Part shown: piece after piece, positions 6,063 to 59,717 of the stretch
How the letters are laid out: each line of letters opens with the position of its first letter
Position numbering within the stretch: the stretch's first letter is position 1
Origin: Thermoplasmatota archaeon
GTDB lineage: Archaea; Thermoplasmatota; Thermoplasmata; UBA10834
Direction: 5' to 3'
Assembly (NCBI GenBank): GCA_018818785.1
Contig: JAHIRF010000002.1
Span: forward strand, 135,874 to 199,873
Length of the DNA: 64,000 nt
Notes under the pieces: model-generated
What the model saw: only the letters and a program-made list of their open reading frames with translations
What the model was told of the DNA's origin: nothing
The model's database searches: none
Program-made: the position numbers and the translations under genes

Positions 6063-6198
6063 CGAAACCCAACCTATGAATCAATGCGTAGCTGGCGGTG
6101 AATCAACCATCTGCTAATCAAGCTTTCTGAGCATTGACGCAAAAGAGACGGACGGGTGAGCAAACCTAATAGCCATATGGCCATCATGCGGGTAGATA

Positions 6199-6588: not shown

Positions 6589-6668
6589 AACCGATTAGAA
6601 TCTATGCAGAAATATGAAAGGGATTTATGTTGGGTTTGATCAAAGGCGAATCGTTCCATCGATGGAAC

Positions 6669-20386: not shown

Positions 20387-20430
20387 CGAAAGTTAGAAAT
20401 ATCTCTCGTCAGCTCCCCAGCTAGCATACG

Positions 20431-20502
20431 GGCCCTTAGATCAGTGGAAGATCGCTTCCTTCGCAAGGAAGAGGTCGTGGGTTCAAATCCCACAGGGTCC
20501 AT
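20431..20502 (+). tRNA. tRNA-Ala (anticodon CGC)
   Basis: 72-nt cloverleaf. Acceptor GGGCCCT/AGGGTCC with G3:U70, anticodon loop TTCGCAA, T-arm GTGGG-TTCAAAT-CCCAC. No encoded CCA. Confidence 0.85.
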
Positions 20503-20538
20503 TCTAAGCCTGACTGGCCAATTTTCAATCAGCCGGAA

Positions 20539-21696: not shown

Positions 21697-21697
21697 G

Positions 21698-21907
21698 ATG
21701 TTCGTTTGCGACGGATGTCAACATGAATTCGATTTTCTAATGATTATCTGTGGCCTAGCGTTGTGCAATGAATGTCTTAAACCGTACGATGACGCATTAT
21801 CGGAATGTCAATCGCATAAAGAATTGGACATTGTGGGTCGACGGATACGTTCGGATATTCTGTCTTTTCGAAAAGGGGAGAGAGTCAATAAGTGTTTTAG
21901 AGAGTAG
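21698..21907 (+). CDS. Small zinc-finger protein (element cargo)
   Basis: 69 aa, 'CDGCQHEF...CGLALCNEC' Cys4-type pattern. Confidence 0.35.
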   Translation: MFVCDGCQHEFDFLMIICGLALCNECLKPYDDALSECQSHKELDIVGRRIRSDILSFRKGERVNKCFRE

Positions 21908-21926
21908 TGGTCGGAGGTCGTCAGTC

Positions 21927-22787: not shown

Positions 22788-22977
22788 GAGGGGGTATGAG
22801 CGCAGTTGCGTTAGAGGCGTTCTAGAGGGGGCTTGGAAGAGGTCAGATGAAGAGGGAGGGAACAGAAGAAGACTGGTAATGAGAGTTGGCTCTTAGCCTG
22901 GTGGCAGGACTGAATGGGGATTCCCCGGAAGCCTTTATGTAGCGAGTTGACGGTCAGAGAAGACAAGGGGTGGAATT

Positions 22978-23268
22978 GTGAATAGCAGTGAACCCGATTC
23001 AGATCAGGGAGAACCAACCTGGTTCAAGACATGGTGGGAGAGGGAGGAGAAACGTCGCTCGAGACGCGAGCTGACTGAAGGCGGTTTTGGCATATTCACC
23101 ATCGGTCTCGGAGGCATCGCAGTCGGTCTGGGATTGGCCGCACTTGAGGACGCCAATACTGTGGCGGTTGCCCAAGTCCTCTTGGTCAGCATGTTCGCCA
23201 TGATTGTGGGGATGGTGATAGCTATGGCCAGTCTGTTCGGTTACAGGCGGAAAAGGGGTCCCAAATGA
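22978..23268 (+). CDS. Small membrane protein (element cargo)
   Basis: 96 aa, 2 TM after a charged N-terminus. Confidence 0.35.
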   Translation: MNSSEPDSDQGEPTWFKTWWEREEKRRSRRELTEGGFGIFTIGLGGIAVGLGLAALEDANTVAVAQVLLVSMFAMIVGMVIAMASLFGYRRKRGPK

Positions 23269-23435
23269 CGAATTTTCTGGAGGGACTTGTTGGCTTATCT
23301 GTTGGTTTGGTGCTTTCCGCGATTATAGCAAATGCTCTATGGACGATACAGCCAATTGGTACAGTGCTGATTGGTGTCATAGATGTCGTGGCCGTCGTCG
23401 CATACGTCAAGGGATTGGCGGGTGGCAGAGGATAG
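23265..23435 (+). CDS. 56-aa two-TM peptide. Its ATG overlaps the stop of the 22978..23268 gene (ATGA).
   Basis: Direct translation gives 'MTNFLEGLVGLSVGLVLSAIIANALWTIQPIGTVLIGVIDVVAVVAYVKGLAGGRG'. Below the ORF-track length threshold. Confidence 0.3.
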   Translation: MTNFLEGLVGLSVGLVLSAIIANALWTIQPIGTVLIGVIDVVAVVAYVKGLAGGRG

Positions 23436-23493
23436 AGTCCGGTTCTAATCTGACTGGGAGAAGACCATAGAGTGGAAATGTGCCACTCGAGCA

Positions 23494-24045
23494 TTAGTAG
23501 AGTTTGCCTCGCTCATATCTGAACGAAGCGTGCTCATGCTTCTTGTCTCGTAACACTGATCTGAACAGGCTAGGGTACTCGATTTCCTCAAGAGGTAGGC
23601 AATAGACTTCGTCTGGCATTGACGGCTCTCCCCCTAGGCCCAGAACCATAAACACAGTCTCTGGACATACTCCCTTCTGAAAGCTGCGATACGCTTCCAG
23701 GCGGTCCTGTTCACATATCTTGAACTTGTCATCATAGAGTCTGGCTCTCCATTTCGCTTCGACCCAGAACTTGTCCCTGCTCCTTCGGTCCTTTATGTAG
23801 AGGTCCGGCTTTCTGCTGCCTTCGGGATCATCCCTCTGCTTGATTTCGAAATCGCGATTCGGAAACATGTTTTCCACGAACGCTTCGAAATCCTTGCCTT
23901 TCGCATACTGGACAGGATCATAGTTTCGCTTCAATTGAACCAATCCCGGACATTGATGACAAGGAGACCAGATAGTTGTTTCGGAAGGTCCCGCCTGGGT
24001 CTCCAGGCTTTTTTGCTCAGAAAAGCCCAGAGAGAGGAGACACAA
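23494..24045 (-). CDS. PD-(D/E)xK nuclease-fold protein (restriction-endonuclease-like / NERD-like)
   Basis: 'RKPDLYIKD...KFWVEAKWR' gives D...(D)-x(n)-E-x-K spacing. 183 aa. Confidence 0.45.
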   Translation of the reverse strand: MCLLSLGFSEQKSLETQAGPSETTIWSPCHQCPGLVQLKRNYDPVQYAKGKDFEAFVENMFPNRDFEIKQRDDPEGSRKPDLYIKDRRSRDKFWVEAKWRARLYDDKFKICEQDRLEAYRSFQKGVCPETVFMVLGLGGEPSMPDEVYCLPLEEIEYPSLFRSVLRDKKHEHASFRYERGKLY

Positions 24046-24133
24046 TCAGGATTACGTTGTCTGCGTACCTCAATCCAAAAAGCATAATTCTCATTGATTA
24101 CCAGCCAAGCACCCGTATTCTGAGGGGAGATGC

Positions 24134-25159
24134 TTGGCTTATGGTGGCAAAGGAACTAATCGGAGTATGACAATTAGGTGCCTATATGTTGGTTTGCCAA
24201 CAGGGAGGTTGACAGATACGGAGAGCGAATCGGAGACTAGAAGTCACAACAAGAAGGTTGATAGCATCAACAAATCAGGCTATGGTTTCCAGAGAAAGAT
24301 TGCACTTGAGATCTCTAGCACCGAGAAATGGGATGTTGAGATTGAGAAGCCCCTCGTAAGATTCGAAGAAAGGTCGGTGGAAGAGGTCAAGGTTGACATC
24401 TTAGCTCGCTCCAGACGGAAGTTCAGCGATATGCCTAGAGCAGTTTCTGTGATTGAATGCAAGAGACATGATCCCAAGTATTCAGAATGGCTCTTCTTCT
24501 CTCGAGGCAGCAATCTTGGAGAGATTGAAGGTCGAGAGAAATTCCCATCAGTTTGGTGTCACCTCACCGGTGGCAGTTATTCCTTCGATAACAAACATCA
24601 CAAGACGGGTAGAATGGGGATGTACGAGGGTTATTTCCCAAGTCTGGCTGAATGGGCTGATATCAAATACAGTGATTCTTTTGGGGTTCCGACGAGGCGC
24701 GATGGTACGATTGGTGCCGCAGACTCAGGAGTGATTCAGCATGCTGCTAACCAGGTGGCTCGGGGAGTGCTCGGCGCTGTTCATAGCCTCCACGAATACC
24801 GAAACTCGCGGAGGAAAGAGCGATTTCTTCCTCTTACGGGGAATCATCTAGTCCTTCCAGTCCTTGTCACAACTGCTCCAATTTACGTGTGCCATGTTGA
24901 TGATGCAGCCACGGACTTACTGCAGGGCAGTATTCCTCCCGACGGTCTAGAGACTGAATCGAAGAAGTGTCTGCTATTCAGATATTCGCTCCCTATAGGT
25001 CTTTGGTTCCCACCTGATACGCTCGCAGGAGACGGATTGCCGGACCTGACGTCACTCTCCGTATGGGTAGTCAGTTCATCATTCTGCAAAGAGTTCTTTT
25101 CGCTCGTTGACAAAGACGCTGCTCATTGGCAAGAAATGGCTCCGATTCAGGGACAGTGA
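24134..25159 (+). CDS. Putative PD-(D/E)xK-like nuclease / hypothetical protein (element cargo)
   Basis: 'VKVDILARSRRKFSDMPRAVSVIECKRHD' is a candidate D...E-x-K motif. 341 aa. Transcribed divergently from the 23494..24045 gene. Confidence 0.35.
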   Translation: MAYGGKGTNRSMTIRCLYVGLPTGRLTDTESESETRSHNKKVDSINKSGYGFQRKIALEISSTEKWDVEIEKPLVRFEERSVEEVKVDILARSRRKFSDMPRAVSVIECKRHDPKYSEWLFFSRGSNLGEIEGREKFPSVWCHLTGGSYSFDNKHHKTGRMGMYEGYFPSLAEWADIKYSDSFGVPTRRDGTIGAADSGVIQHAANQVARGVLGAVHSLHEYRNSRRKERFLPLTGNHLVLPVLVTTAPIYVCHVDDAATDLLQGSIPPDGLETESKKCLLFRYSLPIGLWFPPDTLAGDGLPDLTSLSVWVVSSSFCKEFFSLVDKDAAHWQEMAPIQGQ

Positions 25160-25171
25160 TACAGGAAGAAT

Positions 25172-26500
25172 TCATTCTTCTGAAATGATGTCTCTGAAGT
25201 CCTCGAATGTCTCTGGATAGAAGACCTCGATGTCACACGGGATTTCAGAGAATTCCTTTAATGACAGAATATTGTCGACGACGGATGCTCCAACGCACTG
25301 GGGGATATTCGTTACAAGGTATGCGCTGCTAACGTGAATATCGGCCTTGTCATAGGTCCTCCAATGATTGGAAAGCTGGTTGAGATCTTCACGGATTTGC
25401 GATTCCAGGGTTCGTCCAGGTGAGTCGAGATGGTGAACCTTAGATTCGACGATTCCAATTTCGTTCTCATCCTCCATTTGAAATACCGCGTCCTTCTCGG
25501 TGTCATCGGCCAGTCCTTCCACATATACACCAGGTGCCCAGCTGCGGCCGCTTTCTCGGAGGCTCCAGTGTACCGTGGTGCCCAGCAAACCGTCGCGGGC
25601 ATCCAGCAATTTGGCAAGTGGCGATTTTGGGTAGTAGAATGTACCCACAGCCATTTCGGACTTGCAGACTGGGCAGGTCGAGACCGGAGGGTCCTGGCTA
25701 GCTACCGCAAAGTACGATTGAGGATGTTTCCTGCATTGAGTGCACCAAACTAGCGATGTCGCCGGGGACAAGAGACAGAAGCGGTCGGCAAGCTGTTTTA
25801 GTGTGCGGTGATATTCTTCATAGCTCTGTCTGGAGGACACAAGGAGATTTTCTAGGTGCTTCCGGCCGAATTGCAGCGCACCATATTTCCATATTGAAAA
25901 AATGCTAGCTAGGGCAGGAACCACCAAATCTCCGGCTCTGCTCGTGATTGTGTTTACGACTTTTCTTAGCCCATCTTCACTGTACATCTGAATGATTCTG
26001 TTTGTTACCTCTCTGGTGACGATCTCCGTCCTGATCTCTTCCTCTCGTTCAGTTTCAAGTGATGGAAGCTTCGCGGTCGTTTCCTGAAACTGCTCTTCAA
26101 AACCCGCGAGAATATCAGGTAGGATTGGAAGAAACCTATTCAAGGCGTCGTATACATGGACTCGGAGCTCGGCGTCAGACTTGCTTGCTTCGTAGGCCAA
26201 TGGATCGTGGTCACGGAAGGGCATGCTTTCATCATAAAAGATGGGGAGAACAACTCCCTTGAATGGCATGTAGTCATGCCTGTGGCGCCAGAGAAACTTG
26301 CGAATGTCCTCCTCCGTCGCGACCGCGTCAAAAAGCTGTGTAAGTTCTGGGACCGATTGAATGGTCTTCAACGAATTCAGCTGGTCTGAATCACACTTCA
26401 GCTTCCTTTTGGAGCCGTCCCTGAGGGTGACCGTTTCAAGAATGTTCATTAGGTCATGGTCATCGATTTTCACAGCCCTCGGATGGGGTCTACATGCCAT
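25172..26500 (-). CDS. Large hypothetical protein with an internal zinc ribbon (element cargo)
   Basis: 442 aa, 'CTQCRKHPQ...CPVCKSE' zinc ribbon, no other recognizable domain. Confidence 0.35.
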   Translation of the reverse strand: MACRPHPRAVKIDDHDLMNILETVTLRDGSKRKLKCDSDQLNSLKTIQSVPELTQLFDAVATEEDIRKFLWRHRHDYMPFKGVVLPIFYDESMPFRDHDPLAYEASKSDAELRVHVYDALNRFLPILPDILAGFEEQFQETTAKLPSLETEREEEIRTEIVTREVTNRIIQMYSEDGLRKVVNTITSRAGDLVVPALASIFSIWKYGALQFGRKHLENLLVSSRQSYEEYHRTLKQLADRFCLLSPATSLVWCTQCRKHPQSYFAVASQDPPVSTCPVCKSEMAVGTFYYPKSPLAKLLDARDGLLGTTVHWSLRESGRSWAPGVYVEGLADDTEKDAVFQMEDENEIGIVESKVHHLDSPGRTLESQIREDLNQLSNHWRTYDKADIHVSSAYLVTNIPQCVGASVVDNILSLKEFSEIPCDIEVFYPETFEDFRDIISEE

Positions 26501-26682
26501 AAACCTTCAGGTCCGGTATTAGGTCTACTACAGACTATAGACTGTAGAAAGTAGTCAGTTATCTTACTGGCCTTGGGGCGAACCGCAAGATACAAATGCA
26601 CGAAGTCTGTTAAGATTTATGGATCGTGTAACCTGGAATTTTGGCTTTGGTCTGATTCCTTTCGCGGCCTAGTGGCCCTCTG

Positions 26683-27987
26683 TTGTATTTAATTTTGATA
26701 TTGTTGATCCAGCCAGCACGACTAGGTTGCGAAAGATTGATCAACAAAGGAGACGAAGAATCGTCGTGGGCGGGCAGTTGGCGCTTGAGAGAAAACGTTA
26801 ACTCCCTAGATAGTGATGTAACGAGCGGTCCTGAGGATGGGACAACTCAGGACCGCAAGGGATACAATGAACCCGGTCGTGAACCCAGATCGGGGCAGGG
26901 GAGACGGAAGAGCTCGACGCATAGAAGAAGGAAGCCAGGAAGGGAGCGTGGTCCGAGGTCAAATGGCCCTTATCCGTTCCTGACTGAGCTTAAGGTCTAT
27001 CTGAAGGACGTGGAGCATGCACATGCGGAATCCACACTGACAGACATGGCAAGGAAGCTGCGGCATATCCATGATGTTCTCAAGGAGCTGAAATCGAAGG
27101 GACTTGTACAGACTACAAGTCCCCGAAAGATGGGAGAACAAGAGATCTTTGCATTTGTTGCATGGATGAACGCCAAGGATGGCCTGCGTTCAAGGCCTTT
27201 GGGCGAAGCCACTCAGAAGAAGACGCTTCACCAGTTGAAGAGCTTCCTGGCGCATCTCGACAATGGCGTAATCGACAGAATGCTGAAGAAGAAGCAGCTG
27301 AGGATGCCGCGAGAACGGAATGTTCCTCGTGAATCGTTTGAGGCGGATGAGCTTGCCCAGATTATGACGAGTCTCAAAGAGGCGGCTGCCAAGGGGTCAA
27401 TGAATGCCTTCGGCGTGTTTGGCCATGCTCTGTTCTGCGGATATGCGGGCACGAGACTCAAGGAGGTCAGGCTAGCTCAGAGAGGCGACTACTTGGCCAA
27501 GTTCTATGAATTGACCGTGCTTCATCCAAAGGGCGAGAAGTCCTGGGGAGATCCACGAATAGCACAAATCTGCCCTCCTGGGAGGCCGTTCGCCGACGAT
27601 TTCATGGCTATGCGCGACCGAGAGCTAAGGAAGTCCGACATCCTTGACAGCAAGGCGATCCCATTGGTGCCTAGAGTCATAGGAGGCAGAGTCGAACGCT
27701 GGCCAGATTCGGTCCTTCATAACGTGAAGTGCGAGGTCGAGCGTGACCGTATGCTGCAGTTCGACTTTCGCAAGCTGAGAAGAACTTACGGCCAGAACGC
27801 TTTAGATGCCGGTACGCCAATGGACTTCGTGAGTGGAGCTCTAGGTCACGCACACGTGGCGACGACTCAAAGGTCCTACGTCCGTCTGAAAAGCAGTAGA
27901 GTCTTTGCGGAGATAGACCGTGCCTATGCGAATGCGTCTGTAAATTCAATCCCCGTTGATTGCGATAAGGCCAGGTGTTCGAAATGA
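26683..27987 (+). CDS. int: Tyrosine recombinase / phage-type integrase. The true start is probably internal, near 27046; the first ~120 codons of the ORF are low-complexity.
   Basis: Catalytic region 'FRKLRRTYGQNALDAGTPMDFVSGALGHAHVATTQRSYVRL' shows the R...HxxR...Y pattern. Confidence 0.72.
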   Translation: MYLILILLIQPARLGCERLINKGDEESSWAGSWRLRENVNSLDSDVTSGPEDGTTQDRKGYNEPGREPRSGQGRRKSSTHRRRKPGRERGPRSNGPYPFLTELKVYLKDVEHAHAESTLTDMARKLRHIHDVLKELKSKGLVQTTSPRKMGEQEIFAFVAWMNAKDGLRSRPLGEATQKKTLHQLKSFLAHLDNGVIDRMLKKKQLRMPRERNVPRESFEADELAQIMTSLKEAAAKGSMNAFGVFGHALFCGYAGTRLKEVRLAQRGDYLAKFYELTVLHPKGEKSWGDPRIAQICPPGRPFADDFMAMRDRELRKSDILDSKAIPLVPRVIGGRVERWPDSVLHNVKCEVERDRMLQFDFRKLRRTYGQNALDAGTPMDFVSGALGHAHVATTQRSYVRLKSSRVFAEIDRAYANASVNSIPVDCDKARCSK

Positions 27988-28367
27988 GGAGCCACAGGGT
28001 CCACCATCCATGAGAAAAGGACATAAGGGCGGACTACCAGGGAAAGATTCTTGTGCTGAAGAGAACGATTGCAGCAAGGGAGTCGACTTGAATTCTGATT
28101 CAGAGAGACCCGTCAAGGCCAATGCTCCTGTCCGAATTCCCCGGATACTGCTCATGATTGGCAGTATTGGGGTGATCCGAGGGGTTCTAGCATGCATCAG
28201 GCGTGTAGGAAGAAGAAAAGGAGTTTAGCTCCGGGCCAATTCCCCGCTGATTGAATCCGAGTCCTGACATACTGGCTCCTCAGGGATTCAAATCCCCTTC
28301 AGTTTGAATCCTGATGTAAGGGGCCGTAGACACGGAATAGGAATCTTCAAGCCATGAACAGCGATTT

Positions 28368-28868
28368 ATGGTTGAGGAAATGGCGCTTAGATTGAGCAGA
28401 TCGATTAGACAATTCGGCCTGATAGCTGCAGTGGTGGGCGTAGTGGCCATTCTTGCATTTGCAGCCTATGTTCTTGTCTTCTCGACCATTACGGTGTCCG
28501 GCGTGGTGGACCACAAGACGATTGTTGGAATAAGGGACGACTGTCAGTACACCCTTGTGGTCATCGTTCCCTGGGGCATACAGGTCCAGGATTCAGCCCT
28601 TCAGAGTCTCTTCTCTGATAAGGATGTCAATTTGACGATTGACGAGTCATTGGAGTGGGATATCAGGTCTTGCGGATATGCAGAGATACGCTACCTAGCT
28701 AGCGTGAGATTGTCAACGGGAGACTCGGTCAATGATATTGAACCAGGAGGAACTCTCGCCTACTTCGTTAAGAGAGATGACTTCAACAAACTAGGATTCA
28801 TTGATAACCACACAATCAGTGTAGAGAAGTTCGAATTCGCCACCATCAGAGATGTGGACAAGGGTTGA
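28368..28868 (+). CDS. N-terminally membrane-anchored protein (element cargo)
   Basis: 166 aa, with one TM ('FGLIAAVVGVVAILAFAAYVLVF') followed by a soluble domain. Confidence 0.35.
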   Translation: MVEEMALRLSRSIRQFGLIAAVVGVVAILAFAAYVLVFSTITVSGVVDHKTIVGIRDDCQYTLVVIVPWGIQVQDSALQSLFSDKDVNLTIDESLEWDIRSCGYAEIRYLASVRLSTGDSVNDIEPGGTLAYFVKRDDFNKLGFIDNHTISVEKFEFATIRDVDKG

Positions 28869-28925
28869 ACGCCTTCTGATGTGCAGTTACGATGAATCCT
28901 GTGTAGAATGATGGAAGGGGTTTGG

Positions 28926-29055
28926 TGAGGGGCAACGATCCCCTCCTAAAATGACCAAAGCGTTTGCTATCTCTCAACGCGTCTCCTCGGCGAAGGTGCC
29001 CTAACAAGGGCATTTTGGACTATGAGCCAGTCATCTTCGTGGTCCATCATCCCAA
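28926..29055 (+). repeat. Copy 1 of a ~130-nt imperfect direct repeat. It contains two hairpins and ends in a degenerate copy of the tRNA 3' end.
   Basis: 'gaggggcaacgatcccctc' and 'gccctaacaagggc' palindromes. About 85% identical to 29692..29830. Confidence 0.6.
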
Positions 29056-29141
29056 TGAGTCGATGAGAAGAAGCCATAAGAGCGGAATGCCTGAGTAAAC
29101 TAGATAACAATCCATGTCCATCAACATATAGAGGACTGGCG

Positions 29142-29534
29142 ATGAGGTGTCCGCATTGTGCATTTGAGAGTCCACCAGATAACAATTACTGCGGCCGCTG
29201 TGGAGGAAAACTGGGAGCGATGAGTCCTAACTCAAACGTGCCTGAATGGTTGCGTGACGAAGGGAGAGGTGTTGGAGGAAGCCTATATCCTGAGGCGTCC
29301 TTCATCGACCCTGCTTCGTGGAGCATTGCCCAGAAGAAGAGATGGACAGCATTGGGTGGCATTGCGATGGCATTCATGGTTACATTCATTCTGGCGATAG
29401 CGTTCACGACCACTGACGCATTCACACGAGACCTCTTCTTAATCATGGCCCTTGTCCTTGCGTTCGTATTTGGGTCGATGATTGCTGCCCGCTGCTACAG
29501 AATGTCTATCCGCAAGAAGGAACTCGAGCAATGA
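29142..29534 (+). CDS. Zinc-ribbon + 2-TM small protein
   Basis: 'CPHCAFESPPDNNYCGRCGG' N-terminal ribbon, C-terminal hydrophobic helices, 130 aa. Confidence 0.45.
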   Translation: MRCPHCAFESPPDNNYCGRCGGKLGAMSPNSNVPEWLRDEGRGVGGSLYPEASFIDPASWSIAQKKRWTALGGIAMAFMVTFILAIAFTTTDAFTRDLFLIMALVLAFVFGSMIAARCYRMSIRKKELEQ

Positions 29535-29691
29535 ACCGTCACTGGTGCAAAATGTATGCATGAACCGATTCGGAGAACTCGGATGCGAACATCAATTTTA
29601 TGAGATTCATTGATTGCTATGATGATTCATTGCGATTAGATCGTGGGTGTACCTGTTGAAGGGTCATGAGCTGAGGATGTTGAAGAGGTTT

Positions 29692-29830
29692 AGTGAAGGG
29701 TAATTAACCCCTCTAAAAAGAACAACGGGTTTGCTACCTCTCAATCCGCTTCCTCGGCGAAGATGCCCTAACAAGGGCATTTCGGGGTGTGAGCCAGTCA
29801 TCTTGATGGTCCCTAATCCCACAGGGTCCA
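29692..29830 (+). repeat. Copy 2 of the ~130-nt repeat. It ends with the exact 16-nt tRNA-Ala 3' end (attR, 29815..29830).
   Basis: 'AATCCCACAGGGTCCA' is identical to 20487..20502. Confidence 0.7.
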
Positions 29831-41047: not shown

Positions 41048-41368
41048 CGAGTCGCTAGGCTTGACCGGGACGTTCGGCGTGTCCTTATACACCAAAATCG
41101 TCGACAGTGGGGGTGACAGCTGGGGACGTCGTAACCGAACCGGCGCCAGTCCAGAAGCCGACAGTGAGGCCCTGTCCGATGGGGTTGAAGGGGGCTATAT
41201 GCTCCTGCCGGAGGGCGGGGGTGTGTGCCTTTGTCGCGGAGATCGGGTCAGGCCCTGACGGGAGCAGCCTTACCGCGAACTATCAACGCTCACCGGGAAG
41301 CGGGACCGAGGAGGTTTCTGGGTCGCTGGCGCATGGAGAGGCCGGCAACCCCAGTGGCCTAGCACTCC
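41048..41368 (+). ncRNA. Signal recognition particle RNA (7S RNA)
   Basis: Helix-8 core 'GGTCAGGCCCTGACGGGAGCAGCC' matches the universally conserved SRP RNA motif (CAGG-stem-loop-stem-AGCAG). The 5' 'gagtcgctaggc' pairs with the 3' 'gcctagcactcc' (helix 1). Internal long-range complementarity runs 'ctgggg'/'ccccag' and 'ggcgccag'/'ctggcgc'. GC-rich, with a T-rich stretch after the 3' end. No convincing ORF. Confidence 0.55.
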
Positions 41369-51323: not shown

Positions 51324-53171
51324 TCACAGGTAATCGTGTACCTCGTCGAACTCGTCGCTGATGATCTTGTACTCATCCTCGGGAATGCGTTCCTTGTTCA
51401 CTGGGACGATGACCGATGCGCCGTGAATCGCGGATAGGTCGTTCACCCGCTTCACGAATGCCAGCGCCGCTTCGAACCCGTTTTCAGATAGTATGACCTC
51501 AAGGCCCTCTATCAGCAGTCCTGAGCGCTTCGTCGTCATCAGGAAAGTGGAGACGGTCTCCATCGCGTCCCCGTCCAGGTCGTGGATGTTCACGCTGTCT
51601 ATGTCGGTGGTGCTGTCGCACATGCATTTCACGTCGAAATCATCGCCGAGGTCGTGTTGCTCGCGCACCTTACCTGGGAATTCGTTCGTCATGATGAGCG
51701 CGGGTCGTCCAGAAAGTCCCATGGCGCGTATCATGCTGTATCCTCTTCGTGAATCGATGTCCACGATGATGTAGCTTCTACCGCCCTTCACCTCCTCCTG
51801 GAATGCACCACATCTAGTGCACTGAAGAGTATAGGGGTCTTCTTCGCCGGTTGACAGGAAGGTCTCATCACATGCCTTGCACTGGATCGACCGCGTGTGC
51901 TCTGGGAACAACACCTCGCCGCATTGCGGGCACGCCTGCGCCTTCTCCGCACAATCCATGTGCATCTGATGTCCGCAGATGCATTCGTAGAGTTCCTTCT
52001 CCGCATCAATCGGACGCATGCACATCTGACATCTCAGCATGTGGGAATCGTCATCCTGCTTCACGACCGCCTGCTTCACGGGGATGACGAGATCATCCGG
52101 TATCTCTAACGTCGCACGGTCATAGAGCGTCTTGGAGAACACGTAGCTTGCGAAGATGAACCCGGGCACCAGGAAATACATGTAGGAACCGTAAATCATC
52201 GTGCCCCTGCTGGCGAATGAGAACATGAATGGGAGCACATAGAACAGGGAAAGGATTCCGACCAGCGCCCATGTGAACCATCTCACAATCGGGAGCTGCT
52301 TGGCTGAACCTCTGAAACGCTTCGGATGCTGCATCAGATACTTGCTGAACCTCTTCGCCGATATCCTCAATATCAGTATGCATCCGAACAGGAGCACTAT
52401 GAAGGATATCTGGCTGTTCTCATAGATGCTGAAAGGCTCATAGGTCATGGTCTCTTGGACGGCCGACTCGCCCGGAAGAACCTCGCCCTCAAAGGTATAC
52501 CAGATGATCGTACCGATGGGGGTCCTTAGCTCGCTGATCTTTCCTGCAACCAGATCAGGGGATGTGAAGCTGCTCATGCCGAACATCATCACCCGGTCCT
52601 TCACTATCAATGTGCCATCGAATGTGAAGCCGGTGACAGTGTTGAGTGCACCAGCGAAGGTCTCCAACGGAACCTCCGATGGCCTCATGAGCTTCGTGAC
52701 GCTCTCGCCTATGCAATTGAACCTTATGCTGATGGACATCACATCGGTAGAGGAATATCTCGTGTCGACTATGCCCGATGTGGCATGTCTTAATTCGTAA
52801 TCGGTCATGTTCTCGAAGTCGGTGGGACTATTGATCGTCATGCCCCAATGCTGCCTGCCGGCCAGGGCATCCGTGAACGCGACAAGAAACGCTCTGGCCT
52901 CGGACACTTCGAGATACTGGTTATCGTTCGTGTCGAAATTTGTATAATATCCCCTGCTTTCGAATATGGATTGACGCAATTCGATGGCAGGGACGCCTTC
53001 GAATGTCAGCTGCACCTTGCCATCGCCTTCCATCGTGTCCAGGACGGTGAACGACATCTTCGATTCGATAATCATCACGTTCCCATCGTGGGCGGATGTT
53101 CCCATGGGAACTGAGACGATGAGTGCCATGCACAAGAAGAGGACCAACATTGCTGTCCTGAAACGCATCAT
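51324..53171 (-). CDS. Multidomain membrane protein: signal peptide, extracellular domain, ~4 TM, RING-H2-like zinc finger and further zinc ribbons, then a C-terminal DUF835-like domain
   Basis: 'CQMCMRPIDAEKELYECICGHQMHMDCAEKAQACPQCGE' (C3H2C3-like). The C-terminal 'RSGLLIEGLEVILSENGFEAALAFVKRVNDLSAIHGASVIVPVNKE' aligns with the IleRS extension and the 14495..15208 product. Confidence 0.55.
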   Translation of the reverse strand: MMRFRTAMLVLFLCMALIVSVPMGTSAHDGNVMIIESKMSFTVLDTMEGDGKVQLTFEGVPAIELRQSIFESRGYYTNFDTNDNQYLEVSEARAFLVAFTDALAGRQHWGMTINSPTDFENMTDYELRHATSGIVDTRYSSTDVMSISIRFNCIGESVTKLMRPSEVPLETFAGALNTVTGFTFDGTLIVKDRVMMFGMSSFTSPDLVAGKISELRTPIGTIIWYTFEGEVLPGESAVQETMTYEPFSIYENSQISFIVLLFGCILILRISAKRFSKYLMQHPKRFRGSAKQLPIVRWFTWALVGILSLFYVLPFMFSFASRGTMIYGSYMYFLVPGFIFASYVFSKTLYDRATLEIPDDLVIPVKQAVVKQDDDSHMLRCQMCMRPIDAEKELYECICGHQMHMDCAEKAQACPQCGEVLFPEHTRSIQCKACDETFLSTGEEDPYTLQCTRCGAFQEEVKGGRSYIIVDIDSRRGYSMIRAMGLSGRPALIMTNEFPGKVREQHDLGDDFDVKCMCDSTTDIDSVNIHDLDGDAMETVSTFLMTTKRSGLLIEGLEVILSENGFEAALAFVKRVNDLSAIHGASVIVPVNKERIPEDEYKIISDEFDEVHDYL

Positions 53172-56280: not shown

Positions 56281-56577
56281 TCAGGCTCCGCGCCTCTTGC
56301 TGTGCAAGAAGAACGCAGCTGGACCCGCAGTCGCCGACACCACTCCCACGAGGCTGAGCACAAGCCCGATGAACAATGGCAGGGAGGATGAGCTGAAGAC
56401 CTCATGGGATTCGGATGTCGATCCATCGCTACCCGCACTGACCGTTTCGAGTGAGGATAGAGAGTATACTGTTATGACGAAACCCATGACGAACAATGCT
56501 ATGCCGACCCCCACAACGATAGGTGTTCCCTTCAGCTTGAAGGGGCGCTTGCGGTCGCTATCATCATTTGATGCCAT
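56281..56577 (-). CDS. Small 2-TM membrane protein
   Basis: 98-aa ORF. Confidence 0.3.
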   Translation of the reverse strand: MASNDDSDRKRPFKLKGTPIVVGVGIALFVMGFVITVYSLSSLETVSAGSDGSTSESHEVFSSSSLPLFIGLVLSLVGVVSATAGPAAFFLHSKRRGA

Positions 56578-56825
56578 CTAGTAGATTCCCCTCTAGTCTA
56601 AAAGATGCATACAAGATGCTGTTGATAAAACTTGCCGGTGTCCATGGACATATTGGTGCAATCATGGACCCGTATGACTGGCAGACCAATTTGAGGGCCA
56701 CGTTTCGACCGGCCAGGTGATTGGGTATGACATTATCAGACGAAATGTGACATTTTGGATACCTATATATATGATTGTATGACATATGTTCCTTCTGCGT
56801 CAGCAAATTGGGATGGGATGCACAC

Positions 56826-57206
56826 ATGAACGACCCGTTGGAAAATGAACGAATAACTCTTCGCCTTGATTCGGAGGATCTCCGGCTCATCGACGAGTTC
56901 ATAACGAACAGCAACGAGTTCTCCAACAGGTCGCAACTAGCACGCGCGGCAATACGCGCATACGTGGATGCAAAGCTAGGGTGTGCAGAGGGAGCGAGCA
57001 ACAAACCGAACGAGGTGGTCGTGGAGCTACCACCTCTAGTGATGGATACCGTAACACACCTCGTGACTGAGGGCGTCTACAATTCGGTGTCCGAGGCGCT
57101 AAGCGACTGCGCCCGACACCACTTCCTCCACGCGGAGCACGTGGAGACCATAAAGAAGGACGTTACGCAGCTGAGGAGCACGGTTAAGGTCGTTCCCCGA
57201 GCTTAG
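56826..57206 (+). CDS. Ribbon-helix-helix (CopG-like) DNA-binding protein, apparently with a tandem RHH. The start is likely the internal Met of the 56775 ORF.
   Basis: 'ITLRLDSEDLRLIDEFI...SNRSQLARAAIRAYV', then 'VVVELPPLVMDTVTHLVTEGVYNSVSEALSDCARHHF'. Confidence 0.5.
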   Translation: MNDPLENERITLRLDSEDLRLIDEFITNSNEFSNRSQLARAAIRAYVDAKLGCAEGASNKPNEVVVELPPLVMDTVTHLVTEGVYNSVSEALSDCARHHFLHAEHVETIKKDVTQLRSTVKVVPRA

Positions 57207-57298
57207 GCACTGTTTGTGGGCGCCTTGGCATGGTTGGGGGATTCTCTCAGTTGAGAGGACCCTCTCTCGAATGTCAACGGTGAACGGAGGCCAGAAGG

Positions 57299-58087
57299 AT
57301 GACGGCGGAAGAAGGGAACAGCACGGAAGAGATAATCAATTCATTGGGAGCGAGTCTGGGCGAACCGACGATAGCAGTTGTTGGCTGTGGAGGAGCGGGC
57401 TCGAACATCGTACATCGCATGTACTGGAAGCACAACAGGGTCGAGACCGTTGCCATCAACACGGATGAGGAGCACTTGAGAAAGACGGATGCCCACAGGA
57501 AAGTGTTGATAGGCAAGAACGTGTCCTTCGGCAAGGACGCCGGCGGTTACCCCGAGATCGGTGAGCACTGCGCAGAGAAGGCTCGCGAGGTCATACGAGA
57601 GGCGATAAAGGGCTACGACATCGTGTTCGTCGTCGCAGGAATGGGAGGCGGCACCGGTACGGGCGTAGCACCCATAGTGGCCAATGTCGCCAAGGAGATG
57701 AACGCGATCTCATTCGCTGTGCCGATACTTCCATTCGAGGTCGAGGGCGCCAATCGCATGAAGACTGCGGTGGATGGGCTCGCCAAGCTCAAGGATAATG
57801 CGAGCTTCACAATCGTGCTCGACAACAATAAGTTGATCGGCCTGGGAGACTCTCTGTCAGTCTCAGACGCTATGGGAGTCATCGACCGGAGCGTCATGAA
57901 GATCGTGGATTCCGTTTCGCAGCAGACCAGCTCGTATGTGAGCTCGCTCATGGAAGAGATATCAGGATTCACGGATACGGATGCATCGGAAGAAATGCCG
58001 CAGACCATGCCTTCAACGATGGAAGGACCGATGATACATGCGGATCTGAACCCGATGCTCAACAATTTCGGGCCTGGCTTCTTCTGA
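57299..58087 (+). CDS. FtsZ/tubulin-superfamily GTPase-domain protein. It is C-terminally truncated, with no T7-loop domain, and has an acidic tail.
   Basis: 'GCGGAGSN' (T1), 'GMGGGTGTG' tubulin signature (T4), and 'FTIVLDNNKL' match the FtsZ N-domain. The protein ends about 60 aa later, with no 'N-x-D-F-A-D' T7 motif. Confidence 0.65.
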   Translation: MTAEEGNSTEEIINSLGASLGEPTIAVVGCGGAGSNIVHRMYWKHNRVETVAINTDEEHLRKTDAHRKVLIGKNVSFGKDAGGYPEIGEHCAEKAREVIREAIKGYDIVFVVAGMGGGTGTGVAPIVANVAKEMNAISFAVPILPFEVEGANRMKTAVDGLAKLKDNASFTIVLDNNKLIGLGDSLSVSDAMGVIDRSVMKIVDSVSQQTSSYVSSLMEEISGFTDTDASEEMPQTMPSTMEGPMIHADLNPMLNNFGPGFF

Positions 58088-58121
58088 GAAGCCCATGGAC
58101 GAACGATCGGAGGGATAGCCC

Positions 58122-58529
58122 ATGAGACGCATCCTCAATGATTCCGGAAATTGGCTTAAGACGATTGACGAGTCAGAATGGAACGAAATCAGGAAGGACT
58201 ATCTCGAAGATGAGATCAGAAGCATATGTGAGCCTTTCGTCTTCGACCCGGATTCCGTCCCGGAGAATGAGGAGAAGTCGATCGGTTCGGTGTTCGTGCC
58301 TGCACGGTGTGGCACCGGAAAGCGTCTGAATGGAACCATCGGCAACGTGATGATGAAGAGGGTGTCTCATGATGATACGCACAGCTTTGAGGTTCACGTG
58401 AAGGTCTGGACCGCGTCCGGTCGCGAACCTCCGAGATTGGCAGATGTGCACGCGTGGAGATTCGATTCCGTACACGAAGCGGAGCGATTCATCTCGCCGC
58501 CGTCGAAGAATAACTTCGCTTGGGTATGA
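58122..58529 (+). CDS. Hypothetical protein downstream of the FtsZ-like gene
   Basis: 135-aa ORF. Confidence 0.3.
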   Translation: MRRILNDSGNWLKTIDESEWNEIRKDYLEDEIRSICEPFVFDPDSVPENEEKSIGSVFVPARCGTGKRLNGTIGNVMMKRVSHDDTHSFEVHVKVWTASGREPPRLADVHAWRFDSVHEAERFISPPSKNNFAWV

Positions 58530-58616
58530 TGATCGAACGAGAAACCCCTTCCGCGGGTGTTTTCAGATAGATTAAGACGACAAATGGTTTCTAGTCGCAA
58601 AGCGCTAACCATCTCG

Positions 58617-59717
58617 ATGAAGGCTGGCTTCGTCATCAATCCGATCGCCGGCATGGGAGGACCTGTCGGTCTGAAGGGTACCGACGGAATCGATGCGGTT
58701 GAAGAGGCCATAGATCGAGGCGCAGCCAGGACGGCTGAACGGAGGGCCATCGACTCATTGCAGGGAATCAAATCAGCAGAGCTCCCCATAGAGTTCGTCA
58801 CCTGTTCTGGAATCATGGGGGAGACCGCCCTTACCGCAGCCGGATTGGAGGCTCGCGTTGTCTGCAAATCCAAGCCTGAGACGGATTCCGCGGATACCAG
58901 GAACTGTGTGGCAAGGTTCATCGACGAAGGAGCTGAGATAATCATATTCGTCGGAGGAGACGGGACCGCGAGGGATGTTTTGTCCGTAGTTGGCTCAAGG
59001 CTCCCGATTCTAGGCGTTCCGGCAGGAGTCAAGATGCATTCCGCAGTCTTCCTTAACACACCCCAGGCCTTGTCACAGGTGATGGAGTCGTTCCTCAGAT
59101 CCAGATTATCTGAAGAAGCCGATGTGATGGACATAGATGAGGAGGCTTTCAGGGAGGGCAGGGCGATAAGTCGCCTATTCGGGGTGGCGCGGGTACCTGA
59201 CGACCGCGTCCACATGCAGACTGGAAAACAGTCCTTTGTTTCAGGCACGGCGGACGACGAAGCGTTGGAATTGGGGCGGTACATCGTCGACACGATGGAG
59301 CCTGACATCACGTACATAATTGGTCCAGGAGGCACAACTGCGCACGTCGCCAAAGCGATGCAGTCAGACAAGACATTGCTGGGCGTCGATGTATACAGGG
59401 ACGGATACATCGTCTGTCACGATGCTTCCGAGAGGGACCTGGAGGCAATCATGGCTTCAGGCAGACCGGCCAGGATAATCGTCTCGCCCATCGGCTCTCA
59501 AGGGTTCCTGTTCGGGCGAGGCAACCAGCAGATATCACCTGAGGTCATAAGACGCGTCGGATTGGAGAATGTGATCATCATATGCACGCCAACAAAGCTC
59601 CTGTCGACGCCTGTGATGAGAGTTGACACCGGAGATGCTTCATTGGATGCCCAGCTCAGAGGCAGCGCCAAGGTCGTGGTCGGCTACAAGAGAAGAAGGC
59701 TTGTGCGAATACTCTGA
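58617..59717 (+). CDS. ATP-NAD kinase-like protein (COG3199-type)
   Basis: 'IIFVGGDGTARDV' GGDG motif. The ORF extends upstream to 58557. Confidence 0.55.
   Translation: MKAGFVINPIAGMGGPVGLKGTDGIDAVEEAIDRGAARTAERRAIDSLQGIKSAELPIEFVTCSGIMGETALTAAGLEARVVCKSKPETDSADTRNCVARFIDEGAEIIIFVGGDGTARDVLSVVGSRLPILGVPAGVKMHSAVFLNTPQALSQVMESFLRSRLSEEADVMDIDEEAFREGRAISRLFGVARVPDDRVHMQTGKQSFVSGTADDEALELGRYIVDTMEPDITYIIGPGGTTAHVAKAMQSDKTLLGVDVYRDGYIVCHDASERDLEAIMASGRPARIIVSPIGSQGFLFGRGNQQISPEVIRRVGLENVIIICTPTKLLSTPVMRVDTGDASLDAQLRGSAKVVVGYKRRRLVRIL

What the first reader, a model, noticed from the sequence alone, without database searches (positions are those of the whole stretch)
56826..58529. C-terminally truncated FtsZ/tubulin GTPase-domain protein preceded by an RHH regulator
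The 262-aa product has intact FtsZ nucleotide-binding motifs (GCGGAGSN, GMGGGTGTG). It stops shortly after helix H7 and lacks the whole C-terminal domain, including the T7 synergy loop that completes the GTPase site in protofilaments. It ends in an acidic Met/Pro-rich tail. Such a protein could bind GTP and the plus end of a filament without supporting further polymerisation or hydrolysis. That makes it a built-in capper or regulator of FtsZ/CetZ-type filaments, or a distinct mini-family. A CopG-like RHH gene sits immediately upstream and a small hypothetical gene immediately downstream, all on the same strand.
Basis: seen in the sequence. Interest (0 to 1): 0.65.

Follow-up and report, generated by a model that had tools for sequence, protein, structure and literature searches.

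The report
Conserved half-FtsZ in a CdrS-like operon
This archaeal gene encodes a conserved "half" version of the cell-division protein FtsZ. It keeps the GTP-binding half and a conserved tail but has lost the half that lets FtsZ subunits chain together and hydrolyse GTP, so it is probably a built-in regulator of division filaments, or an unusual replacement for them.

Summary
ORF 57299-58087 (+) encodes 262 aa with an intact FtsZ GTP-binding domain and helix H7, and no C-terminal/T7 subdomain.

It is not a frameshift or pseudogene:
- The 120 closest database clusters (59-100% identity) nearly all have the same length.
- All 120 share the same C-terminal peptide (...HADLxPMxxxFGPxxF).
- The gene is under purifying selection along its whole length.
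- No FtsZ C-domain is encoded anywhere in the window.

Architecture: GTPase domain, an H7 elongated by about 15 conserved residues, an acidic disordered linker, and a conserved terminal peptide. This looks like an internal loss of the C-subdomain, not a simple truncation.

The upstream RHH gene is CdrS-like. The RHH / short FtsZ / NAD-kinase locus is syntenic across Thermoplasmata, including the gut methanogen Ca. Methanomassiliicoccus intestinalis. One Methanomassiliicoccales MAG has a full-length FtsZ at the same RHH-linked position. N-domain HMM scores place the short forms with FtsZ2. The downstream 135-aa ORF is lineage-specific and unrelated to FtsZ.

Most likely mechanism (inferred): it docks by its GTP face onto the T7 face of canonical FtsZ and cannot recruit a further subunit. 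Presence of canonical FtsZ in the same genome is likely but not proven. I found no description of this family in the searchable literature.

The parts
56281..56577 (-). Small protein of 98 aa with two predicted membrane-spanning stretches. It is transcribed divergently from the RHH gene and is a possible partner.
   Evidence: ORF listed. Homologues sit at the same position in every locus of this clade: L001-L006, L088-L094 and L168 (phmmer E from 3e-55 to 9e-9). Only sub-threshold Pfam hits. Its role is untested.
56762..56773 (+). TATA-like A/T stretch (CCTATATATATG) about 55 nt upstream of the RHH start codon. Candidate archaeal promoter of the RHH / half-FtsZ unit.
   Evidence: Read directly from the sequence. 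No comparable A/T box lies in the 92-nt RHH-ftsZ spacer. Inference only.
56826..57206 (+). CdrS-like ribbon-helix-helix regulator of 126 aa. It has an N-terminal RHH and a second RHH-like C-terminal half.
   Evidence: Pfam RHH_8 (26.5 bits) and RHH_1 (23.9 bits), both above cutoff. NCBIfam CdrS E = 8.4e-7, but 28.9 bits against a cutoff of 100. Homologous RHH genes lie directly upstream of all short FtsZs, of a full-length FtsZ (L008), and of haloarchaeal and MG-IV FtsZ2 genes.
57299..58087 (+). Half-FtsZ gene: 262 aa plus the stop codon. A GGAGG sequence lies at 57286-57290.
57383..57406 (+). T1 loop motif GCGGAGSN (aa 29-36).
   Evidence: Sequence. G29-G34 and N36 are invariant in 22 representative family members; in the 91-member alignment N36 is nearly invariant, at 90% or more.
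57638..57664 (+). T4 tubulin signature GMGGGTGTG (aa 114-122).
   Evidence: Sequence. Invariant or nearly invariant in 91 family members.
57860..57973 (+). Helix H7 plus a conserved extension of about 15 residues (aa 188-225, ...QTSSYVSSLMEEISGF...). It takes the place of the T7 loop and C-subdomain.
   Evidence: The AF2 model shows one continuous helix over 188-225. T210, S211, S212, Y213 and V214 are conserved. dN/dS is 0.07-0.33.
57974..58027 (+). Variable acidic, Pro-rich linker (aa 226-243), predicted disordered.
   Evidence: pLDDT below 50. Variable in the alignment. dN/dS is 0.08-0.39 where measurable.
58028..58084 (+). Conserved C-terminal peptide (aa 244-262, PMIHADLNPMLNNFGPGFF). Probably a docking motif for an unknown partner.
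   Evidence: The same peptide type ends all 120 closest homologues. H247 and A248 are invariant; F257 and G258 are invariant in 22 representatives and nearly invariant across 91, as is P259. dN/dS is about 0.07-0.15 in most pairs.
58122..58529 (+). Lineage-specific gene of 135 aa, function unknown. It is not an FtsZ C-domain.
   Evidence: Conserved at 81-83% and 33% identity in L093, L094 and L005. Absent from L001, L003 and L088. No Pfam or NCBIfam hit. hhalign against FtsZ gives probability 0.06%. Foldseek against the PDB finds nothing below E = 0.36.
58584..59717 (+). NAD-kinase-like gene, the conserved downstream neighbour of the locus.
   Evidence: Pfam NAD_kinase and NAD_kinase_C. Syntenic in L001, L005, L007, L088, L093, L094, L172 and L175.

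Best explanation
What is shown: 57299-58087 is a functional gene for a half-FtsZ.
- It belongs to the FtsZ2 lineage, the lineage that sits behind a CdrS-type RHH regulator.
- It has lost the entire C-terminal subdomain: the T7 loop, H8 and the GTPase-activating half.
- It keeps a complete nucleotide-binding domain, helix H7 lengthened by a conserved amphipathic segment, a disordered acidic linker and a conserved C-terminal peptide.
- It stands behind the RHH gene, probably as one transcription unit.

How it probably works (inferred, not shown):
- It binds GTP.
- It offers its nucleotide (top) face to the T7 (bottom) face of a canonical FtsZ subunit or filament end. The partner's T7 loop can complete the active site on the half-FtsZ's GTP.
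- Having no T7 face of its own, it cannot recruit the next subunit. It therefore terminates or limits filament growth, acting as a GTP-dependent, reversible end-cap.
- Alternatively, or in addition, it marks or tethers that filament end through its conserved tail, which would bind a still unidentified partner. Candidates are a SepF-like protein or the co-conserved 2-TM protein.
For: Identity and intactness:
- The family matches FtsZ only over the N-domain and H7.
- The T1-T6 motifs and the guanine-binding D/E in H7 are conserved across the family.
- The 120 closest clusters nearly all have the same length, and all 120 end in the same peptide type.
- dN/dS is 0.05-0.39 in all four segments.
- The AF2 model has a confident GTPase domain, a single long H7 (aa 188-225) and a disordered tail.

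FtsZ2 and CdrS context:
- The upstream RHH shares the CdrS signature ER(I/V)TLR...NRS(Q/E)..R.A(I/V)R. The same kind of gene precedes haloarchaeal FtsZ2 and a full-length FtsZ in Methanomassiliicoccales UBA280.
- Every short FtsZ tested scores higher on an FtsZ2-type than on an FtsZ1-type N-domain HMM. The window protein scores +12 bits; held-out RHH-linked controls score +21 and +27; a bacterial control scores -31.
- The NJ tree places the short forms next to the RHH-linked full-length FtsZs.
- The literature describes cdrS-ftsZ2 co-transcription and an RHH (parD-like) neighbour of ftsZ2 (PMC7439475; PMC8178401; PMC9871819).

Mechanism:
- In bacterial FtsZ, incoming subunits add by their GTP-bound top face to the T7-exposing bottom end. 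Bottom-face mutants are toxic cappers (PMC8936486). A protein with only a top face is the natural equivalent.

A canonical partner is probably present:
- The assembly that holds two mini-FtsZ contigs at 90% identity to the window protein also holds a Thermoplasmata contig with two canonical FtsZ1-type genes.
- Tetranucleotide profiles of the loci carrying that FtsZ1 pair match the mini-FtsZ loci group by group, with r = 0.87-0.92.
Against: - No binding, GTPase or polymerisation data exist, and no complex prediction could be run.
- Co-occurrence with a canonical FtsZ in one genome was not demonstrated. The evidence is the same assembly, the same metagenome series and matching composition only.
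- The terminal peptide lacks the archaeal FtsZ 'GID' motif that binds SepF (one search compared), so the tail's partner is unknown.
- Pende et al. list no FtsZ, SepF or ESCRT-III for Ca. Methanomethylophilus alvus or for a Methanomethylophilaceae MAG. Yet a Methanomethylophilaceae MAG carries the orthologous RHH plus a 233-aa short FtsZ. If that listing is right, the short form can act without a canonical FtsZ in that lineage.
- Deep nodes of the NJ tree have weak bootstrap support.
Confidence: 0.45

Rival explanations
1. Autonomous half-FtsZ. The short protein replaced FtsZ2 and works on its own, for example as a dimer or polymer held together by the elongated amphipathic H7 or another new interface. 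It would use GTP binding as a switch and not depend on a canonical FtsZ filament.
For: - The H7 extension carries a conserved hydrophobic seam and is modelled as one long exposed helix.
- The family is ancient and widespread. All 120 best hits of the Methanomassiliicoccales profile are 223-310 aa with PF00091 only.
- Pende et al.'s table lists no FtsZ, SepF or ESCRT-III in Methanomethylophilaceae, although L055 has the RHH / short FtsZ pair.
Against: - Every characterised FtsZ/tubulin longitudinal contact needs the T7/H8 face, which is missing here.
- The nucleotide-face loops (T3, T5, T6) stay conserved as if they still receive a partner.
- Canonical FtsZ1-type genes occur in the same assemblies with matching composition.
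- The 'no FtsZ' entries come from another group's HMM screen and were not re-tested here.
Confidence: 0.25
2. Sequestering or competing regulator, not a filament-end cap. The half-FtsZ forms dead-end heterodimers with free FtsZ monomers, as SulA does, or its tail competes with FtsZ tails for a common anchor. Either way it lowers the pool able to assemble.
For: The same structural logic applies as for the cap: an intact top face and no bottom face. The terminal peptide is conserved. The gene sits under a cell-cycle-type RHH regulator.
Against: Sequence alone cannot separate this from end-capping. The tail motif differs from the canonical archaeal FtsZ C-terminal motif, which argues against simple competition for SepF.
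Confidence: 0.17
3. Split FtsZ. The missing C-subdomain is supplied in trans by a separate gene, either the downstream 135-aa ORF or a gene elsewhere, so that a two-chain FtsZ is rebuilt.
For: The N- and C-subdomains of FtsZ fold independently (my own knowledge: Oliva, Cordell and Lowe 2004). The downstream ORF is about the size of an FtsZ C-domain and is probably co-transcribed.
Against: - No FtsZ C-domain similarity exists in any frame of the 64-kb window. The best tblastn hit is E = 0.13 at an unrelated site, and the best hmmsearch hit is E = 2.9.
- The 135-aa ORF has no profile similarity to FtsZ (probability 0.06%) and no fold match (the model is low-confidence).
- That ORF is absent from most family loci.
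- The rest of the genome could not be searched.
Confidence: 0.05
4. Pseudogene, frameshift or assembly artefact of a normal ftsZ.
For: Only the missing C-domain.
Against: - The same short form appears in more than 120 independent clusters from many assemblies and sequencing technologies, on contigs up to 1.97 Mb.
- Start, stop and terminal peptide are conserved.
- Selection is purifying.
- No C-domain remnant lies downstream.
Confidence: 0.01

Closest known systems
Archaeal FtsZ2 and the cdrS-ftsZ2 operon (Halobacterium / Haloferax; Darnell et al. 2020, PMC7439475)
   Same: - An RHH regulator gene with the CdrS signature lies directly upstream on the same strand.
- The N-domain scores as FtsZ2-type.
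- A full-length FtsZ occupies the same RHH-linked position in Methanomassiliicoccales UBA280.
   Different: - The C-terminal subdomain, the T7 loop and the 'GID' C-terminal motif are all absent.
- The RHH protein is 126 aa with a second RHH-like half, where CdrS has about 60 aa.
- The score is below the NCBIfam cutoffs for both ftsZ and CdrS.
Engineered FtsZ bottom-face mutants and isolated N-terminal domains. These include the toxic capping mutants discussed in PMC8936486, which cites Du et al. 2018 and Redick et al. 2005. The N-domain work is from my own knowledge of Oliva et al. 2004.
   Same: A functional nucleotide (top) face is combined with a defective or absent bottom face. The predicted result is addition to the growing end followed by a block.
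   Different: Those are laboratory constructs in bacteria. This is a natural, conserved archaeal gene with an added H7 extension and its own conserved tail. No activity has been measured.
Truncated FtsZ paralogues of Hyphomicrobiales, such as Agrobacterium FtsZ1 (bioRxiv 10.1101/2025.09.29.679267)
   Same: A conserved, shortened FtsZ paralogue is kept beside the essential FtsZ and is proposed to tune division. Over-expression of FtsZ1 inhibits division.
   Different: To my knowledge (not tested here) the bacterial FtsZ1 keeps both globular subdomains and lacks the linker and C-terminal peptide. The archaeal protein is the opposite case: no C-subdomain, but a linker and a terminal peptide are kept. 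The two arose independently.
Protein inhibitors that occupy the FtsZ T7 face or cap filaments: SulA, MciZ, MipZ (PMC9897490; PMC8936486)
   Same: The proposed site of action is the T7-exposing end or face, and the proposed outcome is shorter filaments.
   Different: Those inhibitors are unrelated folds. Here the proposed inhibitor is itself half of an FtsZ and would be a GTP-dependent pseudo-subunit.
FtsZl1 / FtsZl2 families (Makarova and Koonin 2010, PMC2875224)
   Same: Non-canonical members of the FtsZ/tubulin superfamily that depart from the standard C-terminal architecture.
   Different: FtsZl1 and FtsZl2 are highly divergent. In FtsZl1 the T6-H7 region cannot be aligned and there is a coiled coil, and the genes usually sit in predicted operons with vWA-domain genes. 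FtsZl2 has a roughly 300-aa alpha/beta C-terminal region. The window protein is 40-47% identical to true FtsZ through H7 and has none of these features.

Membership tests
Canonical FtsZ (TIGR00065 / PF00091 + PF12327) | N-terminal tubulin/FtsZ GTPase domain with the T1 (GGGxxGxN-type) and T4 (GGGTG[ST]G) motifs | tested here: met
   PF00091 E = 2e-42. GCGGAGSN and GMGGGTGTG are present and conserved. Foldseek against the PDB: best matches are FtsZ chains at E about 1e-20.
Canonical FtsZ (TIGR00065 / PF00091 + PF12327) | C-terminal subdomain (FtsZ_C) with the T7 synergy loop NxDxxD | tested here: not met
   No PF12327 hit. Alignments to FtsZ end at H7. The model shows no domain after H7. No C-domain lies in any frame of the window.
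Canonical FtsZ (TIGR00065 / PF00091 + PF12327) | Score at or above the NCBIfam equivalog cutoff | tested here: not met
   210.4 bits against a cutoff of 295.2. NCBI annotates members of this clade as 'hypothetical protein'.
Canonical FtsZ (TIGR00065 / PF00091 + PF12327) | Archaeal C-terminal 'GID' peptide that binds SepF | tested here: not met
   Canonical archaeal FtsZs fetched here end in GIDxV-, GLDVIR- or DIDFV-type peptides (motif defined in PMC8178401). The window family ends in HAD(L/I)xPMxxxFGPxxF.
Archaeal FtsZ2 lineage | RHH (cdrS / parD-like) gene immediately upstream on the same strand | tested here: met
.
Archaeal FtsZ2 lineage | N-domain closer to FtsZ2 than to FtsZ1 | tested here: met
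   The HMM score difference is +12.3 bits for the window protein and positive for all 22 short forms tested, with controls behaving as expected. The NJ topology agrees, but deep support is weak.
Archaeal FtsZ2 lineage | Polymer-forming, constriction-associated function (shown for FtsZ2 in Haloferax) | not testable with these tools
   Needs biochemistry or cell biology.
CdrS (NF058555) for the upstream RHH | Single RHH domain of about 60 aa scoring above the equivalog cutoff | tested here: not met
   28.9 bits against a cutoff of 100. The protein has 126 aa with a second RHH-like half. It is homologous to CdrS, not a CdrS equivalog.
CetZ | Closer to CetZ than to FtsZ in sequence | tested here: not met
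   Chains 4b45, 3zid and 4b46, which I know to be CetZ structures, score E = 1e-9 to 5e-7. FtsZ chains score 1e-42.
FtsZl1 / FtsZl2 | Highly divergent GTPase domain with, for FtsZl1, a T6-H7 region that cannot be aligned, a coiled coil and a frequent vWA-gene neighbourhood, or, for FtsZl2, a roughly 300-aa alpha/beta C-terminal region | tested here: not met
   The alignment runs through H7 at 40-47% identity to FtsZ. The neighbours are RHH, NAD kinase, LeuRS and POR. Family definition is from PMC2875224.

The most novel reading that the evidence does not exclude
In part of the Thermoplasmata, for example the gut-associated Methanomethylophilaceae, the half-FtsZ would be the only tubulin-superfamily protein, with no SepF or ESCRT-III. 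It would then organise or drive cell division without a T7 loop or C-subdomain. That would be a new mode of assembly or GTPase control in the FtsZ/tubulin superfamily. The window's protein would be a member of the same orthologous family.
Probability: 0.15. Interest if true: 0.85.

Novelty: new variant of a known kind. Interest (0 to 1): 0.62.

Why it matters
FtsZ/tubulin proteins are understood as two-subdomain units. One subdomain binds GTP, and the other supplies the T7 loop that both joins subunits and triggers hydrolysis.

A naturally conserved protein with only the first half, inherited across an archaeal class that includes human-gut methanogens, is a ready-made experiment on that principle. 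It sits in the operon position of the constriction paralogue FtsZ2.

If it caps or tethers FtsZ1 filaments, it would be the first FtsZ-derived filament-end regulator described in archaea, where almost no FtsZ regulators are known. If it works alone, it would challenge the accepted assembly mechanism.

It also bears on genome surveys. Annotation pipelines call these proteins 'hypothetical', and at least one published census lists no FtsZ for Methanomethylophilaceae, where a MAG carries the short form.

Tried and rejected
1. Frameshift or pseudogene. Rejected on homologue lengths and tails, dN/dS, and searches for a C-domain in all six frames of the window by tblastn and in all six-frame ORFs of at least 30 aa by hmmsearch.
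2. Downstream 135-aa ORF as the missing C-domain. Rejected by Pfam and NCBIfam, hhalign, a single-sequence AF2 model (pLDDT 64.6) with Foldseek against the PDB, and patchy synteny.
3. Taxonomic census with the genome-contig scan. The scan only supplied useful reference loci: L007, L008, L016, L055 and the haloarchaeal loci.
4. Proving co-occurrence with canonical FtsZ by matching contig lengths between protein searches. There was no exact match. The near match of 390,653 and 390,655 bp turned out to be different assemblies.
5. A clade-specific DNA pattern for the FtsZ1 pair against JGI metagenomes. It returned 73 contigs, none identical to a known mini-FtsZ contig, and none with a mini-FtsZ inside the stored stretch.
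6. Accession-number linkage through cluster listings. No canonical FtsZ from the same MAG was recovered. AGN26151.1 of Ca. M. intestinalis could not be equated with the 246-aa short form.
7. The FtsZ1 of type P0407 in the same assembly series was rejected as the cognate partner, because its tetranucleotide correlation with mini-FtsZ loci is only 0.54-0.68.
8. The Foldseek afdb50 library was not available.
9. Membership of CetZ, FtsZl1 or FtsZl2 was considered and rejected.
10. Literature searches found no description of an archaeal FtsZ lacking the C-subdomain.
Full report
**1. Observation**

The region holds three ORFs on the + strand:
- an RHH gene at 56826-57206 (126 aa);
- an FtsZ-like gene at 57299-58087 (262 aa, with a GGAGG 8 nt upstream);
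- a 135-aa ORF at 58122-58529.

The 262-aa product carries GCGGAGSN (aa 29-36) and GMGGGTGTG (aa 114-122). It matches FtsZ over its N-terminal half only:
- Pfam Tubulin/FtsZ GTPase domain, E = 2e-42 over aa 25-181, and no FtsZ_C.
- NCBIfam ftsZ over profile positions 17-203 of 353 only. The score is 210 bits, below the 295-bit cutoff.
- M. jannaschii FtsZ structures, E = 1.8e-42, aligning aa 23-203 to residues 38-219.

There is no other FtsZ-family gene in the 64-kb window.

**2. The short form is a real, conserved family**

A search of about 5.8 billion proteins returned 1,855 hits at E <= 1e-10.
- The best 120 clusters are 59-100% identical and carry PF00091 only. Nearly all cover 98-100% of the query.
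- Their lengths peak at 258-264 aa. The longer ones are upstream start calls.
- All 120 end in the same peptide type, PM(F/L)xxFGP(S/G/N)(M)F(G).
- In alignments of 22 and 91 members, the T1-T6 loops, the start of the protein and the tail positions H247 and A248 are invariant. F257, G258 and P259 are invariant or nearly invariant (90% or more).
- Codon comparisons between seven loci give dN/dS of 0.05-0.13 for the GTPase domain, 0.07-0.33 for H7 plus its extension, 0.08-0.39 for the linker, and about 0.07-0.15 for the terminal peptide. One comparison of very few sites was noisy.
- Canonical FtsZ C-domains searched against all six frames of the window (tblastn), and against all six-frame ORFs of at least 30 aa (hmmsearch), find nothing. 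The best tblastn hit is E = 0.13 at an unrelated site, and the best hmmsearch hit is E = 2.9.

A frameshift, pseudogene or assembly artefact is therefore excluded. The window protein itself is MBU1157908.1, a 'hypothetical protein' of a Candidatus Thermoplasmatota MAG.

**3. Anatomy**

The AlphaFold2 model built on the family alignment has mean pLDDT 77.5. It shows:
- a short N-terminal helix;
- a confident GTPase domain (aa 25-182);
- one continuous helix from 188 to 225;
- a disordered remainder.

Normal H7 is about two-thirds of that helix. The extra part is the conserved segment QTSSYVSSLMEDIxGY, which has a hydrophobic seam. Foldseek against the PDB aligns only about 187-207 columns to FtsZ structures, that is the N-domain plus H7.

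So the protein is GTPase domain + long H7 + acidic linker + conserved terminal peptide. The tail is conserved. In addition, a short and a full-length Methanomassiliicoccales FtsZ end similarly (...GPIMQ and ...IPLVQ). I therefore infer an internal loss of the C-subdomain and not a premature stop. That last step is inference.

**4. Context and ancestry**

*Conserved neighbourhood.* The following order recurs in every locus of the clade fetched:
- LeuRS (-);
- a 2-TM protein of about 80-98 aa (-);
- RHH (+);
- half-FtsZ (+);
- NAD-kinase-like gene (+), missing in a few loci;
- the 2-oxoacid:ferredoxin oxidoreductase operon (-).

These loci include a 1.97-Mb complete MAG, CP070732.1.

*Wider synteny.* The core RHH / short FtsZ / NAD kinase also holds in:
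- Methanomassiliicoccales MAGs (L007);
- a 2.45-Mb contig;
- Ca. Methanomassiliicoccus intestinalis, whose short form is WP_400207237.1, 246 aa.

*Extent of the short-form family.*
- A profile of Methanomassiliicoccales short forms returns 120 best hits, all 223-310 aa with PF00091 only.
- An exhaustive search of 50%-identity representatives shows many further short forms of 246-289 aa with the same architecture. The closest two-domain FtsZs are at most about 47% identical.

*The RHH gene.*
- The RHH protein shares the CdrS signature. It hits NCBIfam CdrS at E = 8e-7, though below the cutoff.
- Homologous RHH genes lie directly upstream of haloarchaeal and MG-IV FtsZ2 genes.
- One also lies upstream of a full-length 349-aa FtsZ with an NLDFAD T7 loop in Methanomassiliicoccales UBA280.

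*FtsZ2 affinity.*
- All 22 short forms tested score better on an FtsZ2-type than on an FtsZ1-type N-domain HMM. The window protein scores +12.3 bits. Held-out RHH-linked controls score +21 and +27, and a bacterial control scores -31.
- An NJ tree groups the short forms beside the RHH-linked full-length proteins and apart from FtsZ1, but deep support is weak.

*Agreement with the literature.* These results fit the published cdrS-ftsZ2 operon and the RHH/parD neighbour of ftsZ2 (PMC7439475; PMC8178401; PMC9871819). Together they make the half-FtsZ a derivative of FtsZ2.

**5. The downstream gene**

The 135-aa ORF is a real gene in the window's subclade: 81-83% identity in L093 and L094, and 33% in L005. 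It is absent from L001, L003 and L088. It has:
- no family hit;
- no profile similarity to FtsZ (hhalign probability 0.06%);
- no fold match, although the single-sequence model is weak.

It is not the missing C-domain and not a conserved partner. The divergently transcribed 2-TM protein is conserved throughout the clade and is a better candidate partner, though untested.

**6. Is a canonical FtsZ present in the same cells?**

This could not be proven. What I found:
- Assembly ERZ25039527 holds two large contigs (906 kb and 600 kb) whose mini-FtsZ is 90% identical to the window's. The same assembly holds a 390-kb Thermoplasmata contig with a divergent pair of two-domain FtsZ1-type genes next to Rpp14, proteasome alpha, SBDS and exosome genes.
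- A DNA pattern specific to that FtsZ1 type found 73 JGI contigs, nearly all long enough to tell showing the same gene pair. Many come from the metagenome series that also yields mini-FtsZ contigs.
- Tetranucleotide profiles of these FtsZ1-pair loci match the mini-FtsZ loci group by group (r = 0.87-0.92). A different FtsZ1 type from the same assembly series does not (r = 0.54-0.68).
- Pende et al. list three FtsZ homologues, two with adjacent accession numbers, plus SepF for Ca. M. intestinalis. They list none for Ca. Methanomethylophilus alvus or for a Methanomethylophilaceae MAG. Yet a Methanomethylophilaceae MAG has the orthologous RHH plus a 233-aa short FtsZ.

So co-occurrence is likely in the window's clade, but the short form may stand alone in one family.

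**7. Mechanism**

*Shown:*
- an intact, conserved nucleotide pocket;
- no T7 loop or C-subdomain;
- a conserved tail;
- a CdrS-like operon position.

*Inferred:*
- The protein binds GTP and can present only the nucleotide (top) face.
- In bacterial FtsZ, subunits add by that face to the T7-exposing bottom end, which is the growing end. Bottom-face mutants cap filaments and are toxic (PMC8936486).
- The half-FtsZ would therefore add once to a canonical filament or monomer and have its GTP hydrolysed through the partner's T7 loop.
- It would block further growth, or mark or tether that end through its tail.
- The tail lacks the archaeal 'GID' SepF-binding motif, so its partner is unknown.

*Rivals:*
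- autonomous assembly through the long H7;
- monomer sequestration or tail competition;
- a C-domain supplied in trans (unsupported);
- pseudogene (refuted).

**8. Comparison and novelty**

- The protein fails the membership tests for canonical FtsZ: no FtsZ_C or T7, below the equivalog cutoff, and no GID tail.
- It is not a CetZ and not an FtsZl1 or FtsZl2.
- It is best described as a new architectural variant within the FtsZ2 lineage.
- The nearest natural analogy is the truncated FtsZ paralogues of Hyphomicrobiales. To my knowledge those are truncated the other way round.
- Seven literature searches found no description of this archaeal family. The library is incomplete, so prior description cannot be excluded.

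**9. Verdict**

Interest is 0.62. The finding is a widespread natural half-FtsZ that makes a basic question directly testable: what an FtsZ can do without its T7 half. The function, and the presence of a canonical partner in the same genome, remain to be shown.

Noticed in passing
window 20430-29830: tRNA-Ala(CGC) lies at 20430-20501. Its last 16 nt are repeated exactly at 29815-29830, and 15 nt recur at 27992-28006. The stretch between them has lower G+C (0.48 against 0.53-0.55) and mostly ORFs with no family hit. It also has a Rep ORF2/G2P-like ORF (20749-21696) and an integrase-like ORF (27046-27987). This looks like one or two tandem integrated elements at the tRNA gene.
   Followed up: partly
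window 56281-56577 (-): A 98-aa protein with two hydrophobic segments is transcribed divergently from the RHH gene. It is conserved at that position in every locus of the mini-FtsZ clade (E from 3e-55 to 9e-9) but was not seen in the Methanomassiliicoccales loci. It is a possible membrane partner of the half-FtsZ.
   Followed up: partly
L055 (Methanomethylophilaceae MAG) 5457-6681, and Pende et al. 2021 Suppl. Data 1: A published census lists no FtsZ, SepF or ESCRT-III for Ca. Methanomethylophilus alvus or for a Methanomethylophilaceae MAG. Yet this family carries an RHH gene plus a 232-233-aa short FtsZ. Either the census missed the short form, or it is the only FtsZ-family protein there.
   Followed up: partly
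L087 3443-6110, and 73 JGI loci L095-L167: A divergently oriented pair of two-domain FtsZ1-type genes (401 aa and 369 aa) lies next to Rpp14, proteasome alpha, SBDS and exosome genes. The pair appears in nearly all of those metagenome contigs that are long enough to show it. This lineage therefore has an FtsZ1 duplication.
   Followed up: partly
proteins P0121 (826 aa), P0124 (840 aa), P0126 (744 aa): Among the best-scoring representatives are single polypeptides with two complete FtsZ units in tandem, joined by a Q/P-rich linker. They could be natural FtsZ-FtsZ fusions or merged gene calls.
   Followed up: no
window 41-3007 (+) and 51324-53171 (-): Two large proteins end in a DUF835 domain. 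One combines a class-I aminoacyl-tRNA-synthetase C-terminal part with helix-hairpin-helix repeats; it starts near the window edge and may be incomplete. The other has a C1_2 zinc-finger-like domain and sits beside LeuRS. DUF835 proteins lie beside LeuRS in related loci too.
   Followed up: no
L173 5843-6912: In one Ca. M. intestinalis metagenome contig the NAD-kinase-like gene downstream of the short FtsZ is split into two ORFs (263 and 90 aa). It is intact (364 aa) in two others. This is probably a frameshift or a sequencing error.
   Followed up: no
window 41053-41364 (+) and 16592-17932 (+): Archaeal SRP RNA (Rfam RF01857, 166.8 bits) and SRP54 are both in the window, about 23 kb apart. These are ordinary housekeeping genes.
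   Followed up: no
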